From the IMG/VR virus record IMGVR_UViG_3300046059_000011, positions 1-35,330 of that record: a stretch of 35,330 nucleotides of DNA. The stretch is one strand, 5' to 3'. Both the position numbers and the translations under genes were made by a program. The notes beneath the pieces were generated by a model, which saw nothing but the letters and a program-made list of their open reading frames with translations, did no database searches and was not told the origin of the DNA. This stretch comes from a virus (Duplodnaviria; Caudoviricetes). Positions 7,592-35,260 of the stretch are shown one piece after another (position 1 is the first letter of the stretch; every line of letters begins with the position of its first letter).

Positions 7592-7841
7592 TTTTTGGCT
7601 TCACTTTCATTTCGAACCAGTCGCCATCTGGCCCTTCCCCGACCACTTCCACGGGGAAGCCTGCATCTTCGAACGTTTCCTGCACTGTGCGTTCATCCGC
7701 ATCGGCCACCTTCACCACAGCACCATCCAGAACCGGATGGATCTGGAAGGGCTGTTCTGTTGGATCTGAATCGATCTGATCTACCAGCACTTCCAGCACT
7801 GCATCACGGTGTGCCAGTGCCTGTTCTTTGCCTTCGAACAC
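7584..7841 (-). CDS. hypothetical acidic protein
   Basis: GTG start with GGTGA SD; first gene downstream of leader hairpin A. Confidence 0.75.
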   Translation of the reverse strand: MFEGKEQALAHRDAVLEVLVDQIDSDPTEQPFQIHPVLDGAVVKVADADERTVQETFEDAGFPVEVVGEGPDGDWFEMKVKPKND

Positions 7842-7885
7842 GGTTTATCACCGTATCAGCACCGTTTACTGGCGGTGCCAGCCAG

Positions 7886-7932
7886 AACCGTTCCACCCGG
7901 CCACTGCTGCTGGCCGTGGTGGAAATCCGGTT
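7886..7932 (-). promoter_or_regulatory. Conserved leader hairpin copy A
   Basis: Minus strand: AACCG-GAT-TTCCACC-A-CGGCCA-GCAGCAG-TGGCCG-GGTGGAA-CGGTT. Confidence 0.75.
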
Positions 7933-7970
7933 TATAAACCGTATGTCGCTTTATCTATCCTGGTAGAAGG

Positions 7971-11105: not shown

Positions 11106-11194
11106 CGTTCGAACCTCGATAGTAGCCACTGCCGGGTGGCCAGCCGTGTTCCTGCATCTGTTCTGGTGCCTCGATGTCGGCAGCCACCACGCCG

Positions 11195-11239
11195 AACCGT
11201 CCCACCAGGCGGGGGGACCCACCTGGTGGATTTCCGGTT
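11195..11239 (-). promoter_or_regulatory. Conserved leader hairpin copy B
   Basis: Minus strand: AACCG-GAAA-TCCACCAGGTGGG-TCCC-CCCGCCTGGTGGG-A-CGGTT. Confidence 0.7.
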
Positions 11240-11263
11240 GGGAAAATATCGCTTCGATCTAGA

Positions 11264-12306: not shown

Positions 12307-12476
12307 CGTGAACACCCTGCCGCTGTTCCAGCACCAGCCGCGCATCAAAGCCGCTGTTCATCTTACTGTTCTTCCATCGTGCCACGTATTTGCCGTGGTA
12401 GCCACTTCGGTTCTGCATCGTTTCAGTGCATCCGTTACGTGGGTGCGAACGGATCCTGATGTGGCAGGATCGGCCA

Positions 12477-12533
12477 TCACCGTTCCACCAGGAACCCCCG
12501 CACACGGGGTGTTCCTCGGTGGAAATCCGATGA
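12477..12533 (-). promoter_or_regulatory. Conserved leader hairpin copy C
   Basis: Minus strand: TCATCG-GAT-TTCCACC-G-AGGAAC-A-CCCCG-TGTG-CGGGG-GTTCCT-GGTGGAA-CGGTGA. Confidence 0.75.
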
Positions 12534-12565
12534 AAAAGCGTGGGTTCGAAGCCGGGGGATCGGTT

Positions 12566-14076: not shown

Positions 14077-14145
14077 CGTTCGTTCCTCGATGCAGCCGTA
14101 ACGTGGCTGCCACCGGATCCCGAACCGCCTGGCGGGATCAGCCAG

Positions 14146-14189
14146 CACCGTTCCACCCAGTCGCACACGACTGTGGTGGAATTCCGGTG
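14146..14189 (-). promoter_or_regulatory. Conserved leader hairpin copy D
   Basis: Minus strand: CACCG-GAA-TTCCACC-A-CAGTCG-TGTG-CGACTG-GGTGGAA-CGGTG. Confidence 0.75.
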
Positions 14190-14600
14190 AATCCAGTGCG
14201 TAATCACCCCTGCTGCCAGGGGCTTTCCGTAGCACTGCCGTTCGATCAAAGCGTGGGGTGCCTTCGAACAGCAGTAAGGATCTGGTGTTTCCGTTCCACC
14301 CCGAGACATCAGTTCTGGCCCATCGTTCCATCGGCCCGCCTGCACTGCCGTTCCAGGTTCTGGCCATCAATCTGCCCCGGTGGTTTCTGCTACCCAGCAG
14401 CACCGTTCAGTTAGGTGCTGTCTGTTGTGGATGCGGGTTCCCGGCACGCCAGGCCGATCTTCCGAAGCCTGCCACCTATCGAACGCTGTGCGTGATCCGG
14501 GGGCTGCACCCCGAGGCAGGCCACGAACAGCGGGGAACCAGAATTGTGTCCCCTGGTTCCCAGTGGGGGGGCTGTCATATCTGGATGTGATCCGTTTGTT

Positions 14601-14685
14601 CCTACCCATACCCACACACCCTGGGTACTTAGTTGTTAGGGATACCACCCTTACACCCTAACACCATCCTAACAATATGGTAACA
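14601..14685 (-). promoter_or_regulatory. Putative early promoter/operator region
   Basis: TACCCA-N13-TGGGTA inverted repeat, CTAAGTA TATA-like box on the minus strand, three CCTAACA-type boxes. Confidence 0.5.
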
Positions 14686-14813: not shown

Positions 14814-14972
14814 AAAGTAAAGGGGATCCCTGGGCCAGTGTGTTTCACCTGGCCTGGTGGAACGGTGATTTCCCAGCGGATCCGATGGGGGTGGTGGGGG
14901 GTTCAGACCCGGTTCGGATCTGTGCCTCTGACATCGGATCACCGTGTGCGATGATCCTGGATCCCCTGGGCA
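14814..14972 (-). ncRNA. Candidate trans-acting antisense small RNA (~155 nt)
   Basis: CTTAAT ~27 nt upstream; 9-bp closing stem AGGGGATCC/GGATCCCCT; internal hairpins with G-U pairs that work only on the minus strand; TTTACTTT 3' end; seeds complementary to the leader hairpins. Confidence 0.6.
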
Positions 14973-15030
14973 GTTCAGCGTATGATGGCGGGGTGATTAA
15001 GGTTTAGGGAACTGGTTGGGCTGCCTTGAT

Positions 15031-16740
15031 CTAGATCACCCGAACGTTATTGTACGTTTCCCCATCTTCCCCATCCACCACCCAGGTGCCATCATCGTTC
15101 CGAGACTGAAGCGTTCCCACCACCAGCAGGCCACCGGCCTGGCCACCGCCTGCAGTGCCACCAGACCGATCACTAAATTGCTGGATATTGTTACTGATGT
15201 CGTTCCTGATCAGGCTGCCACCGCTGCCGATCAGATCCCCGAGGTTCCGTTTCGATGTTCCGAAATCGATGGCCGTTTTCGCTGCCTCGGGGGTTACGCT
15301 GTATTCCACTGATTTCACGCGGAAGATATTACTGGCCACCTTCGATGGGATCCCCCGACTGGGATAATACACTTCGGCTTCATCGCCTGGATCGGCTGGG
15401 TGAACGCCTGGAACCGGGGCCTGGCCAGATACTGGGGTTCGAAGAAACTGTTCCAGTGCTTCTTTGGCGATGTCTAACGCCTGGCTGAAGCTGGTGAAGG
15501 TGTTACTCGATAGGGATTCAGCCCGAAGGTTGATCTGATCGATGTCGTTCTGGGGGGCTGGGCTGGAATCGTATATCACACCTGCATCTGGGTATTCCCC
15601 TGTTTCGAACGGGTTATCTAAAGACCACTGCAGATCGCCATCATACGCCCAGGCCCAGATGTTTACGGATCCTGACCCGTTCACCTTTATGAAGTTCCGA
15701 ACGCCATCCAGATCCCGGTTCGCTGCTGGCTTCAGCACGTTATCACCTTCGCGGAACAGGTATCGATCCGGGCTGGCCGTGGATTCCGGCTGCACCACCA
15801 GTTCATCGAAATCGTTTACATAGTATTCCCAGGAACGGGCTTCATCCAGGCCCGAGATATACGAAACGATACGCCGAACGGCTTCATCCACACTGGTTAG
15901 GTTCGCCAGCGAAAAGTTCCAGTCTGTCTTTACGTAATTGAAGATCTGCCCCCCGAGGGATACGATGTCATACTGGCCGGGGGAAACATCGGTTGTGATG
16001 CTGTCCACCTGCACCCATTTTTGGTTTCCACCCGATAGTGCCAGTTTGAACGTATCTGTTCCATACGCATCTTCCACGCTGTCACCTGGGGGAAGATCGA
16101 TGCTGGCCGTTACGGTGTTTCCATCATCATCCTGGCCGGTGATGTCGGCTGAATAGGTTACGCTGGTGGTGTTCACATAGGAATCGATGCGGATTTCCGC
16201 TTCATACCCGTTTGAAGCGGTTTCGTGCTGATTGAATTCATCGTTCGATACGTTAAATTCTTGAACGTGTGCGATGTCTATTACCCCGAAGTCCACAGAA
16301 CCAGCGAACGTGCCATATGTGGATTCCAGATCCGAGGGATCGAACGTGATTTCCCGAACCTTCCCGGCTGATGTATCCACTATTGCATCGATCACCTGAA
16401 ACAGATTATCTTCATCGATGGATCCGGCTGCGGTAGCATCCTTTAGCAGCCCATCGGCTTCCCGTGCATCCACCGTTACGATGGGGTTTTCTTCATCATC
16501 CTTCACGGAATCGGTGTATCCATCGAACGTTACGGTATTGTTCTGATCCGTGATGGTGATGCTGATGTCTTTCTGTTCTTCCAGTGCGTGTGGCCGTTCG
16601 CTGGTATCGAGGGTTACAGTGGCTGAATTCGGTTTGTTTTCTTCCTGGATGATCTTTATTTCGGCTGCATCCTGGGAAACATCCCCTTCCGGCTGGATGG
16701 TGACTGTCCAATTAACAGAATACGCCTGGGTGCTGGGCAT
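15031..16740 (-). CDS. baseplate hub / tail-tip protein (gp27/gpD-like)
   Basis: N-terminal PNSATVTL...FDGYTDSV...VTVDAR and C-terminal GDEAEV...FRVKSVEYSV...TAIDFG, typical of hub proteins; lies in the tail module. Confidence 0.65.
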   Translation of the reverse strand: MPSTQAYSVNWTVTIQPEGDVSQDAAEIKIIQEENKPNSATVTLDTSERPHALEEQKDISITITDQNNTVTFDGYTDSVKDDEENPIVTVDAREADGLLKDATAAGSIDEDNLFQVIDAIVDTSAGKVREITFDPSDLESTYGTFAGSVDFGVIDIAHVQEFNVSNDEFNQHETASNGYEAEIRIDSYVNTTSVTYSADITGQDDDGNTVTASIDLPPGDSVEDAYGTDTFKLALSGGNQKWVQVDSITTDVSPGQYDIVSLGGQIFNYVKTDWNFSLANLTSVDEAVRRIVSYISGLDEARSWEYYVNDFDELVVQPESTASPDRYLFREGDNVLKPAANRDLDGVRNFIKVNGSGSVNIWAWAYDGDLQWSLDNPFETGEYPDAGVIYDSSPAPQNDIDQINLRAESLSSNTFTSFSQALDIAKEALEQFLRTPVSGQAPVPGVHPADPGDEAEVYYPSRGIPSKVASNIFRVKSVEYSVTPEAAKTAIDFGTSKRNLGDLIGSGGSLIRNDISNNIQQFSDRSGGTAGGGQAGGLLVVGTLQSRNDDGTWVVDGEDGETYNNVRVI

Positions 16741-24880: not shown

Positions 24881-25004
24881 CACAGGGGTTTTCTGCGAAC
24901 AGGCTGCTAACATTTCCCTAACCTATATTTGAACGGTGTGCATTTTATTGAGTTACCAGCAGCCCCACTGGTGGAACGGTGGCACGCTGGAACGGTGATC
25001 AGAT

Positions 25005-25607
25005 ATGGGAACATCTTCGAAAGAAGGGATCGGAAAGGATCCCGAAAAAGTGGATGCAGCAGCACCGACTGATGAACAAGTTCTGGAACACCTGGAACAG
25101 CAGGCTACCCCCGAGGCAGCCGCTGATGATCTAGATCAGGAACTGCCATCACGGGCTGAACTGTTCCAGGTGGTGCAGGATCAGCAGGAATCCATCGAGC
25201 GGCTAGAAGATCGGGTGTCAGATTTGGAAGCCGAAGTGGATGAAGTTTCCTTTGAAGCCACTACCATCGAGGAAGTGGCCGAACAATTCAAGAAGGGGGA
25301 AATCGGAGGGGAAGCCGGGGCTGAATTCCTTCAGGAATTCGTTTCCGTCCCCCCATCAGACAGCCTGATAAACGCCAGATCGAACCAGTTATTCTTCCGG
25401 ATCATCCGGGAACGTCGTGTGGGAAAGCCCGTGCTGGCAAAACACGTGGTGAACTGGCTGGATTTTCACGATTCAGCGAATCCCTCGGTGAAAGCGAAAC
25501 GGGTGATGGAACGGGTAGAGCAGCATCGGGATGATGATCATTACATCGGCAGCATCGAGCTAGGGAAGTACCGGGGACAGAACGTTATCTGGTTGAACCG
25601 TGACTAG
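25005..25607 (+). CDS. coiled-coil plus putative winged-helix protein, candidate replication initiator or regulator
   Basis: Only convincing plus-strand gene; GGTGA SD; acidic coiled coil followed by a more basic helical C-terminus; next to the repeat array. Function is inferred. Confidence 0.7.
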   Translation: MGTSSKEGIGKDPEKVDAAAPTDEQVLEHLEQQATPEAAADDLDQELPSRAELFQVVQDQQESIERLEDRVSDLEAEVDEVSFEATTIEEVAEQFKKGEIGGEAGAEFLQEFVSVPPSDSLINARSNQLFFRIIRERRVGKPVLAKHVVNWLDFHDSANPSVKAKRVMERVEQHRDDDHYIGSIELGKYRGQNVIWLNRD

Positions 25608-25624: not shown

Positions 25625-25870
25625 CCTAACACGGAAGCGGCAATTTTCGCTGTTAGCTGAGTGTTAGGTGTTAGGCTTCAGAAAGTGCGTGGCTGGTAGC
25701 CACGCCATCTTTCTTTCTAGTTCTCTTTATAAGGTAGTTATATATAACGTATGAGCTAACACCTTCCTAACATCGATGTAACAGCGGGAAGCGTGAAATA
25801 TAGACGATCACCGTGGTTTGCCTAACACCACGCTGATTTTCACGGCTAACAGCTAACACCAATCTAACAT
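25625..25870. repeat. CTAACA box array around an AT-rich core, putative replication origin
   Basis: About ten (C/G/T)CTAACA boxes; three inverted on the left and the rest direct on the right of an AT-rich core containing the palindrome GTTATATATAAC. Confidence 0.6.
25687..25718 (+). terminator. Hairpin plus T-rich tract downstream of the plus-strand gene
   Basis: GCGTGGCT-GGT-AGCCACGC followed by CATCTTTCTTTCT. Confidence 0.45.
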
Positions 25871-34261: not shown

Positions 34262-35260
34262 TTACGCCGCGCCAGTCCGTTCCAGCCGTTCGTTCAACAC
34301 CGTGGGGTTAAATTCCTGATCTGCATCGATCACCTTCGGTCTGAACCCGTTCGTTCCCCAGATACGGTTCAGGTGATCTTCCCCGATTTCTTCCTCGCTG
34401 ATCGGTTCGTCCCCTTCAGGTAGTTCTAACAGTGGCCGGATGTCGGATCTGCACCACGGATGATTCGGGGGCAGCAGCCACGGCTGTTCCACCATATCCA
34501 CTGTCACTTCATCCAGCCGCCTGCATACAGTGCTGGTTTTCTTATCGATCACCGCATCATACGTGGCATACCGGAAGCCGTTATTCAGATACCTTCGATG
34601 GGTGGCAGTTACATACGCATCCTGCACGGAATCGTGGCTGATCAGTTCAGCCTTTGATTTCGCCGTTTGCCCGGTAATCCCGTTTTCCCGTCTGGTATCT
34701 GCATCCCCATCCAGCAGCACCTGTTCCACCCGTGTGGCCAGATCCATCTGATCATCCCGATTCGAAAACACGGGTTCGTTCTTACTGAACCCGATCTGGA
34801 TCTGTCGGGTGGCCTGATCCCCGATTTCACTGGCCAGGGAATCATCGTTTTCATACAGCAGTGCAGCATCGATGTTCCGAAGTTCGGCGTTCAAAGCCCG
34901 ATCAGCGTGATCGAGGTTCGGGGATCCGATCAGATCCGATTCATCGAACTGTCCGGGAAGCGTTCGCTGAACCCGGCTGAAGGAAGCCCGTGCAGCCCGT
35001 GCCATCGTGGTTTTATGTCGTTCTTCCAGCCAGTTCACCAGCTTCACCCGCAGTTCACGGGCTGCCAGTCGGGTGATATGTTCGTTAATCCGCCTGGCCT
35101 TCGATCTGGGGCTGGCCGTGTTCTGCTGAAGGATCTTGATCCCTTCCCCCTGAAGGAAATCCTCGATCACCGACTGAAGATCACGCACCACTTGCCTGGA
35201 ACGCTGCCTGGCACGCCGAAGATCCGTTCCGTTACTCGATGCTGGGTCCCTGGCCGACAT
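34262..35260 (-). CDS. MuF/SPP1-gp7-like minor head protein
   Basis: YDAVIDKKTSTVCRRLD...PPNHPWCRS signature. Confidence 0.88.
   Translation of the reverse strand: MSARDPASSNGTDLRRARQRSRQVVRDLQSVIEDFLQGEGIKILQQNTASPRSKARRINEHITRLAARELRVKLVNWLEERHKTTMARAARASFSRVQRTLPGQFDESDLIGSPNLDHADRALNAELRNIDAALLYENDDSLASEIGDQATRQIQIGFSKNEPVFSNRDDQMDLATRVEQVLLDGDADTRRENGITGQTAKSKAELISHDSVQDAYVTATHRRYLNNGFRYATYDAVIDKKTSTVCRRLDEVTVDMVEQPWLLPPNHPWCRSDIRPLLELPEGDEPISEEEIGEDHLNRIWGTNGFRPKVIDADQEFNPTVLNERLERTGAA

What the first reader, a model, noticed from the sequence alone, without database searches (positions are those of the whole stretch)
14814..15001. Candidate trans-acting, two-seed antisense sRNA controlling several viral leaders
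Seen: on the minus strand, CTTAAT (15001-14996) lies ~27 nt upstream of a self-contained ~155-nt unit. The unit is closed by AGGGGATCC/GGATCCCCT and ends in TTTACTTT. It contains GGATCATCG-CACA-CGGTGATCC and CAGATCCG-AAC-CGGGTCTG hairpins, whose G-U pairs work only on the minus strand. Seed 1, CGCACACG (14950-14943), is complementary to the CG-TGTG-CG loops of leader hairpins C and D. Seed 2, ATCACCGTTCCACCAGG (14869-14853), is a perfect 17-nt complement of hairpin C's 3' arm and an 11-12-nt complement of A and D. It matches B with one G-U pair and also matches the leader of gene 25005. All these targets are on the sense strand of 5' leaders, in both gene orientations. Known: phage P1 C4 and P4 CI RNAs are bipartite trans-antisense immunity regulators, and halovirus phiH uses a cis-antisense RNA. 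Inference: this is an RNA-based lysis/latency or immunity switch in an archaeal virus. I do not recognise it as a described family.
Basis: partly seen in the sequence, partly recalled or inferred. Interest (0 to 1): 0.92.

Follow-up and report, generated by a model that had tools for sequence, protein, structure and literature searches.

The report
Archaeal virus multi-target antisense RNA
A salt-loving archaeal virus and its relatives carry a small non-coding unit with a short exposed stretch that mirrors a tag in the leaders of several of the virus's own genes; tag and mirror change together between viruses, so the unit likely makes an RNA that pairs with those messages and likely switches them off, a kind of control not found described for archaeal viruses.

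Summary
The window is an HHTV-1-like halovirus. The unit (14971-14814, minus strand) is conserved and non-coding. It has a predicted promoter of its own and an unpaired 12-nt seed, and it occurs in 5 virus records with this seed, inverted together with its promoter in 2 of them. The seed's complement marks four bulged leader hairpins in the early-gene region and the leader of gene 25005, a predicted winged-helix protein; 24 of 25 non-self sites in 7 records lie in sense leaders. The strongest evidence is covariation: two distant relatives carry a different seed (3 of 11 positions changed), and their leader sites changed to match. Seed 1 is an accessory, present in 3 of 5 units. Against: no transcript data exist here, and folded leader hairpins bind the unit no better than random windows in equilibrium cofolding. 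A lysis/latency switch is not shown, since HHTV-1 is described as lytic. Best reading: a trans-acting, multi-target antisense repressor that works like P1 c4 and P4 CI but belongs to neither family.

The parts
14814..14971 (-). Predicted antisense RNA, 158 nt, from predicted start G14971 to the pyrimidine tail
   Evidence: start inferred from promoter spacing; the overlapping ORF reads the seed in three different frames in three genomes
14996..15009 (-). Predicted promoter: CCC(T/G)AAC-type motif plus TATA-like box; same motif as the gene-25005 promoter
   Evidence: motif followed after 31 nt by a purine in 6 of 6 units; in the 5 type-1 units this is the first base of the fold
14936..14957 (-). 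Seed-1 hairpin; the seed (14950-14943) is complementary to the loops of leaders C and D
   Evidence: present in window, HHTV-1 and G006, absent in G004 and G007
14904..14922 (-). Variable hairpin, not conserved in other records
   Evidence: contig in run X1 has three loop changes and one U-G to U-A change
14853..14869 (-). Seed 2 (core 14867-14856), single-stranded linker, the only long invariant block of the unit
   Evidence: (mean unpaired probability 0.54-0.88 in 5 units)
14814..14854 (-). 3' hairpin (14854-14833) and pyrimidine tail, predicted terminator
   Evidence: stem sequence differs between units while the hairpin is kept
14079..14192 (-). Leader D: bulged hairpin (site 14157-14146, loop 14172-14159) plus two further hairpins before ATG 14076
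12415..12535 (-). Leader C: 17-nt complement 12492-12476, loop hairpin 12509-12496
11109..11242 (-). Leader B: site 11206-11196 with one G-U, before ATG 11105
7825..7935 (-). Leader A: site 7897-7887, before GTG 7841
24955..25004 (+). Leader of gene 25005 from its predicted start: two tandem sites (24968-24982, 24988-24999); the second covers a GGTGA Shine-Dalgarno-like motif
   Evidence: tandem sites kept in 6 of 6 records where this leader was seen
25005..25607 (+). HHTV-1 gp32 ortholog: coiled coil plus predicted winged-helix domain; candidate DNA-binding regulator
   Evidence: Foldseek top hits are mostly winged-helix proteins but none reaches E 0.001 except gp32 itself
14291..14300 (-). 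Weaker 10-nt site inside the long early leader; role uncertain
   Evidence: imperfect in G006 and G004
14627..14674 (-). Predicted early promoter with an upstream array of CTAAC-type repeats (candidate DNA operators)

Best explanation
The unit at 14971-14814 is a conserved, non-coding, foldable element whose exposed 12-nt seed is complementary to five leaders of the virus's own genes; it is likely transcribed from its own predicted promoter into a small RNA that is predicted to pair with those leaders in trans and likely represses them. Shown: conservation, complementarity, the leader position of the sites and seed-target covariation. Inferred steps: (1) the RNA starts at G14971 and ends in the pyrimidine tail; (2) at gene 25005 it would cover the Shine-Dalgarno-like motif and block translation of a winged-helix regulator; (3) at leaders A-D the site is normally paired to an imperfect cis copy of the seed that carries a 3-nt bulge, and the perfect trans copy would displace it, helped at C and D by loop-loop contact with seed 1, probably on nascent RNA; (4) loss of that hairpin would expose the message to decay or early termination. 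The likely purpose is self-specific shut-off of early genes, either as a timer in the lytic cycle or as superinfection immunity.
For: Units with this seed in 5 records: window, HHTV-1, G006, and inverted with the promoter in G004 and G007. The seed is the only long invariant block and is unpaired. Promoter spacing is 31 nt in 6 of 6 units. 24 of 25 non-self wobble-tolerant sites in 7 records lie in sense leaders. Seed switch: G005 and G014 carry the site GTGACGGGACGG in 3 and 1 leader hairpins, the matching cis arm, and a unit with the matching seed. Cognate duplexes are -24.8 to -34.4 kcal/mol and non-cognate -13.4 to -22.9, over 27 seed-site pairs. Site variants keep pairing through G-U (window B, G004 D, two G005 sites). 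Hairpin-1 arm changes are mostly one-sided and wobble-compatible: 88% of 322 cells paired over the whole leader structure, 0 of 500 shuffles as high. Seed 1: GTGTGC loops in 6 of 6 C/D hairpins of the three genomes with the GCACAC loop, 0 of 3 in the two without; HHTV-1 has a matched U-A change next to the D loop. In an accessibility-aware scan, seed-2 sites take 6 of the top 16 places among 380 helices, the gene-25005 leader first.
Against: No expression data. In equilibrium cofolding the folded leaders bind no better than random windows: -4.7 to -11.5 kcal/mol against a null mean of -8.3 and a 5th percentile of -16.4 (n=120); the gene-25005 leader gives -10.6 (similar). Opening the site costs 10-17 kcal/mol. 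In the scan the other 10 of the top 16 are non-leader hits, mostly from a non-conserved C-rich linker, and local folding underestimates target structure. In the G005 and G014 units part of the seed is predicted paired. G006 seed 1 has a terminal mismatch to its loops. The seed switch may be one evolutionary event, and the records are related. The sign of regulation at A-D is not determined by any search. G005 and G014 have the system without a gene-25005 homolog.
Confidence: 0.6

Rival explanations
1. Same RNA, opposite sign at A-D: the bulged hairpins are attenuators or processing signals that silence early genes; the RNA opens them (activation, IsrK-like) while it blocks the winged-helix repressor, which gives a pro-lytic toggle.
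For: The site is masked in cis by default, as in activated leaders. The unit's promoter carries the CTAAC-type motif that is arrayed around gene 25005 and the early promoter, so mutual repression is possible. IsrK activates by strand displacement (PMC4825925, passages).
Against: The RNA binds the 3' arm, so the site stays covered in both states. Forced opening gave no shared new structure at the start codons of the 16 leaders (read by eye). It needs opposite effects from one seed. G005 and G014 lack the gene-25005 homolog.
Confidence: 0.2
2. The functional object is the double-stranded site, recognised by a protein or nuclease. Leaders A-D form it in cis and are not real targets; the RNA supplies the partner only for arm-less leaders such as that of gene 25005.
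For: Poor cofolding with folded hairpins; the cis hairpin and its 3-nt bulge are kept even when the sequence switches.
Against: Seed 1 matches the C and D loops and covaries with them. In G005 all three intergenic sites found are hairpin-type, yet a matching unit is kept. The helix sequence changes between lineages, which fits pairing better than protein reading.
Confidence: 0.1
3. The 11-12-mer is a DNA operator for a viral protein (for example gene 25005), and the unit is one more operator copy.
For: A predicted winged-helix protein has two tandem sites in its own leader.
Against: Variants are G-U-compatible and flanking stems covary; tandem spacing varies from 15 to 17 nt; the system exists without that protein; separate CTAAC arrays are better operator candidates.
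Confidence: 0.05
4. The unit is a functionless inverted duplicate of a leader, or chance.
For: The reverse complement of the unit has a hairpin-site-hairpin layout like a leader, so it may have arisen that way; G006 has extra inverted copies near the end of its early region.
Against: The two seeds are not collinear with an inverted copy; only the seed is conserved; promoter geometry is fixed; the seed switch is matched.
Confidence: 0.05

Closest known systems
c4 antisense RNA of phages P1/P7 (Rfam RF01695)
   Same: Virus-encoded structured RNA that pairs through short exposed stretches near a ribosome-binding site; sequence differences give virus-specific control (PMC12197685 section 7; PMC8198154 passages).
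   Different: No Rfam match. Archaeal virus; stand-alone unit that can be inverted or moved; 5-7 sites spread over about 17 kb, not one c4-icd-ant operon; targets masked by a bulged cis copy of the seed.
CI RNA of satellite phage P4
   Same: Antisense RNA acting on leader sequences of early genes, by premature termination (PMC4825925, passages).
   Different: CI is processed from the transcript it regulates, between seqA and seqC; this unit has its own predicted promoter and distant targets. Termination is untested here.
IsrK of prophage Gifsy-1
   Same: Trans RNA that binds one strand of a leader helix and releases the other (PMC4825925, passages).
   Different: IsrK activates one downstream locus and comes from the same transcript; no sequence or Rfam relation here.
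Halovirus phiH Tant and HFTV1 antisense RNAs
   Same: Antisense control in haloarchaeal tailed viruses (PMC4284463, PMC6210493, PMC12542753; passages).
   Different: Those are cis-encoded, overlapping their targets on the opposite strand; this unit does not overlap its targets.

Membership tests
c4 antisense RNA (RF01695) | Match to the family covariance model | tested here: not met
   0 Rfam matches at E<=1 in the window; only tRNA-type matches in 4 relative loci
c4 antisense RNA (RF01695) | Two short exposed seeds pairing with a bipartite target (bipartite layout recalled) | tested here: inconclusive
   Met in 3 of 5 type-1 units; no seed 1 in G004 and G007, and none seen in G005 or G014
c4 antisense RNA (RF01695) | Encoded in one operon with icd and the antirepressor gene it represses | tested here: not met
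   No such families among 56 ORFs; the unit is inverted or relocated in relatives
c4 antisense RNA (RF01695) | Seed differences between related viruses matched by target differences | tested here: met
   (predicted pairing only; heteroimmunity itself not tested)
c4 antisense RNA (RF01695) | Matured from a precursor by RNase P (recalled) | not testable with these tools
   needs RNA end mapping
P4 CI RNA | Processed from the primary transcript that carries its targets on both sides | tested here: not met
   Own predicted promoter and tail; opposite orientation to the early operon in G004, G007 and G014
P4 CI RNA | Causes premature transcription termination and immunity | not testable with these tools
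   no RNA data
phiH Tant-type cis-antisense RNA | Transcribed from the strand opposite its target, overlapping it | tested here: not met
   Nearest sites lie 0.55-0.7 kb away, the others 2-10 kb

The most novel reading that the evidence does not exclude
Madisaviridae-like haloviruses run a natural strand-displacement RNA circuit: one or two stand-alone antisense RNAs with a swappable 12-nt address open bulged leader hairpins across the whole early region, and the address defines exclusion groups between co-occurring viruses. It would be a first multi-target trans-acting regulatory RNA network in an archaeal virus.
Probability: 0.4. Interest if true: 0.9.

Novelty: new variant of a known kind. 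Interest (0 to 1): 0.82.

Why it matters
The antisense control reported for archaeal viruses in the papers seen is cis-overlapping. A trans-acting RNA with one seed and many leader targets would show that c4/CI-like logic exists in archaeal viruses, apparently independently. It can be tested at once: HHTV-1 is cultured on Haloarcula hispanica and carries the whole system, and natural seed variants provide a ready cognate/non-cognate control. It could also give a programmable RNA switch for haloarchaea and shows that several annotated HHTV-1 'genes' (gp41-43 region) are probably RNA elements.

Tried and rejected
Rfam: nothing in the window. Two-seed pattern scan of viral contigs and target-pattern scans of metagenome and genome contigs gave only chance hits: none of those loci matched the window or HHTV-1 by blastn. 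Protein scans of metagenome and genome contigs with alignment A1 and of viral contigs with PCNA found nothing. L149 and L401 were chance matches. Sequencing runs: no RNA holder listed; only DNA contigs were laid. Coding role for the unit rejected: three frames in three genomes. My interim note that G005 and G014 lack the system was wrong; they use another seed. G001, G002 and G003 share the structural genes but gave no unit or leader match; G003 and G001 have an unrelated sequence after gp40, and G001 and G002 are fragments. Gene 25005: no informative Pfam, PHROG or NCBIfam family; Atlas hits are unnamed archaeal clusters; 20 representatives without names; no full-length homolog in 401 sampled genomes of one archaeal phylum (1 partial coiled-coil hit), so no proviral evidence; the VIA structure search could not be run, so the winged-helix call rests on weak Foldseek hits and the model's secondary structure. 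K-turn and hammerhead readings of the leader hairpin were considered by eye against recalled consensus and dropped. Look-ups in earlier findings by place and by sequence were empty.

Full report
Context. The window is a 35-kb fragment of a tailed halovirus close to HHTV-1 (Madisaviridae): major capsid protein 86% identical, same gene order, with PCNA, Holliday-junction resolvase, HNH and tail genes. The unit lies between the last tail-module gene (gp40 ortholog, 15031-16740) and the predicted early promoter.

Observation. The 17-nt match was reached by 1 of 3000 simulated units. The wobble-tolerant 11-mer GGTGGRRYGGT is expected 0.5-0.9 times in the window and 0.23 times in synonymously shuffled CDS; it is seen 7 times: 1 self, 5 leaders, 1 CDS. 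Codon bias does not explain it. Rfam has no match.

The unit in relatives. It follows gp40 in HHTV-1 and G006 and is inverted, with its promoter, in G004 and G007. Only the seed and a few flanking bases are invariant. Lengths run from about 85 to 158 nt. The seed is unpaired or mostly unpaired between stems whose sequences differ (mean unpaired probability 0.54-0.88; fold z -2.2 to -7.0). A CCC(T/G)AAC-type motif with a TATA-like box lies exactly 31 nt before a purine in 6 of 6 units; in the five type-1 units this is the first base of the fold. The same motif precedes the gene-25005 leader in 6 of 6 records. The overlapping ORF (HHTV-1 gp41) reads the seed in three different frames in three genomes. 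A DNA contig in run X1 shows three loop changes, one U-G to U-A stem change and a seed-end change that keeps a U-G pair.

Targets. In 7 records with this seed, 24 of 25 non-self sites lie in sense leaders; I count the HHTV-1 site at 35081 as a leader although the annotated start of gp43 lies 12 nt before it. Class I (16 copies with an arm) is a long hairpin whose 5' arm is the seed interrupted by a 3-nt bulge, followed by one or two more hairpins and a start codon. On 13 aligned copies, 88% of 322 cells pair and 9 of 25 pairs change on both sides; in hairpin 1 the arm changes are mostly one-sided and G-U-compatible while the site hardly varies. The structure was derived from these sequences and they are related, so the shuffle control overstates significance. 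Class II is the gene-25005 leader: two tandem sites, the second over a GGTGA motif shortly before the ATG; from its predicted start it folds with the core of the first site in a loop. The protein is a coiled coil plus a confidently modelled helix-helix-helix-hairpin domain whose best structural neighbours are mostly winged-helix proteins, all with E above 0.001. CTAAC repeats cluster at its promoter, behind it and before the early promoter (15 of 39 in the window).

Covariation in trans. A covariance model of class I found weak matches at position D in G014 (E 2e-4) and G005 (E 0.011). There the site reads GTGACGGGACGG, 3 of 11 aligned positions changed, and the cis arm has changed with it. 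Each record also holds one non-leader copy in the opposite sense inside a unit with hairpins: at the inverted unit-1 position in G014, and at the end of the early region in G005, there with the same promoter geometry and a U tail. G005 has three such leaders, two with A-to-G changes that keep G-U pairs. Cognate duplex energies are -24.8 to -34.4 kcal/mol, non-cognate -13.4 to -22.9 (27 pairs). Finer cases: HHTV-1, G004 and G006 carry a second, paralogous unit beyond the part covered by this window. In HHTV-1 it pairs 18 bp with leaders A and B against 11 for unit 1, while unit 1 is better for C and gp32; D and the other genomes are less clear-cut. Its folds are weaker (z -2.1 to +0.3). Seed 1: the three genomes with a GCACAC loop have GTGTGC loops in 6 of 6 C/D hairpins despite different stems; the two without have 0 of 3; a contig in run X3 shows another D-type stem with the same loop. 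These are few, related genomes: the seed switch may be a single event.

Against. No RNA run is listed, so expression is unknown. Equilibrium cofolding of the whole unit with folded leaders is not better than with random windows (-4.7 to -11.5 versus mean -8.3, n=120); without the 5' arm it is -11.6 to -19.2 (similar). The model cannot form kissing loops and is not set for molar KCl, but the result means invasion must be kinetic, co-transcriptional or assisted. In the genome-wide scan 10 of the top 16 hits are not seed-2 sites. Type-2 seeds are predicted partly paired.

Mechanism. Shown: anatomy, conservation, covariation. Inferred: transcription, pairing in vivo and sign. I commit to repression (0.6), because covering a Shine-Dalgarno-like motif is repressive, one sign for all targets is simplest, and the hairpins look like protective 5' structures (two directly follow a tRNA gene: G007; G005). 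Activation at A-D is the main rival (0.2). Whether repression serves a lytic timer or immunity is open: HHTV-1 is listed as virulent and lyses cells, and its life cycle was called unexplored.

Known systems and literature. It works like P1/P7 c4 and P4 CI, with an IsrK-like displacement geometry, but fails membership of each. Papers seen: passages of PMC4284463, PMC4810249, PMC8651126, PMC4825925, PMC2864571, PMC8198154, PMC6210493, PMC12542753; passages and section 7 of PMC12197685. Nine searches showed no description of this RNA or these leaders; only listings were seen for the other hits. The original HHTV-1 genome paper (recalled) was not among them, and subscription papers and all supplements were not seen, so prior mention cannot be excluded. 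An earlier AI note on a Bacteroidales phage (e1-5845808) describes a similar logic; it is unchecked and not used as support.

Verdict. A real, conserved, probably trans-acting multi-target antisense RNA of an archaeal virus; new variant of a known kind; interest 0.82.

Noticed in passing
window 14600-14190 (-): About 400-450 nt of conserved, apparently non-coding structured leader between the early promoter and hairpin D, alignable in HHTV-1, G004, G005, G006, G007 and with shared motifs in G014; no Rfam match. Candidate large non-coding RNA or antitermination element.
   Followed up: partly
L120:48790-48915; L136:1850-1995; L144:2030-2175 (-): Second paralogous antisense unit at the far end of the early region, with its own promoter-like motif and a seed that prefers GGTT-type sites; G006 has three seed-like copies there. 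Outside this window.
   Followed up: partly
window 14639-14674, 24907-24922, 25626-25868: Clusters of CTAAC-type repeats, often 11 bp apart, at the early promoter and on both sides of gene 25005: candidate operators or iterons for the winged-helix protein.
   Followed up: partly
L123:3538-3615; L140:14027-14200 (-): tRNA genes (Glu-TTC in G007; a long, possibly intron-containing one in G005) directly before class I hairpins; T-arm-like stretches precede some other copies.
   Followed up: partly
window 1062, 18339, 24842, 27130, 33153: Repeated short hairpin followed on the minus strand by a T-rich tail, 39 of 49 nt or more shared between two copies (families D4/D9); possible terminators or processing sites.
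   Followed up: no
window 14800-14700 (-): Element between the unit and the early promoter, with a second CGCACACG; a diverged inverted copy lies at the far end of the early region in HHTV-1, G004 and G006.
   Followed up: no
whole window: Strong tetramer avoidance: GGAG/CTCC, TGAG/CTCA, GAGC, CATG, AGCT and GCGC at 0.08-0.22 of expectation, suggesting restriction-site avoidance.
   Followed up: no
L133 and L145 (G003, G001): Close relatives by capsid (83-84%) whose sequence after gp40 is unrelated to the early region, with no gp32 homolog, unit or leaders found; could be a module swap, a provirus boundary or chimeric assembly.
   Followed up: no
L400:4221-4915 (-): In G014 a different reverse-strand gene sits at the gp32 position, with two near-matches to the type-2 site in or after it.
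   Followed up: no
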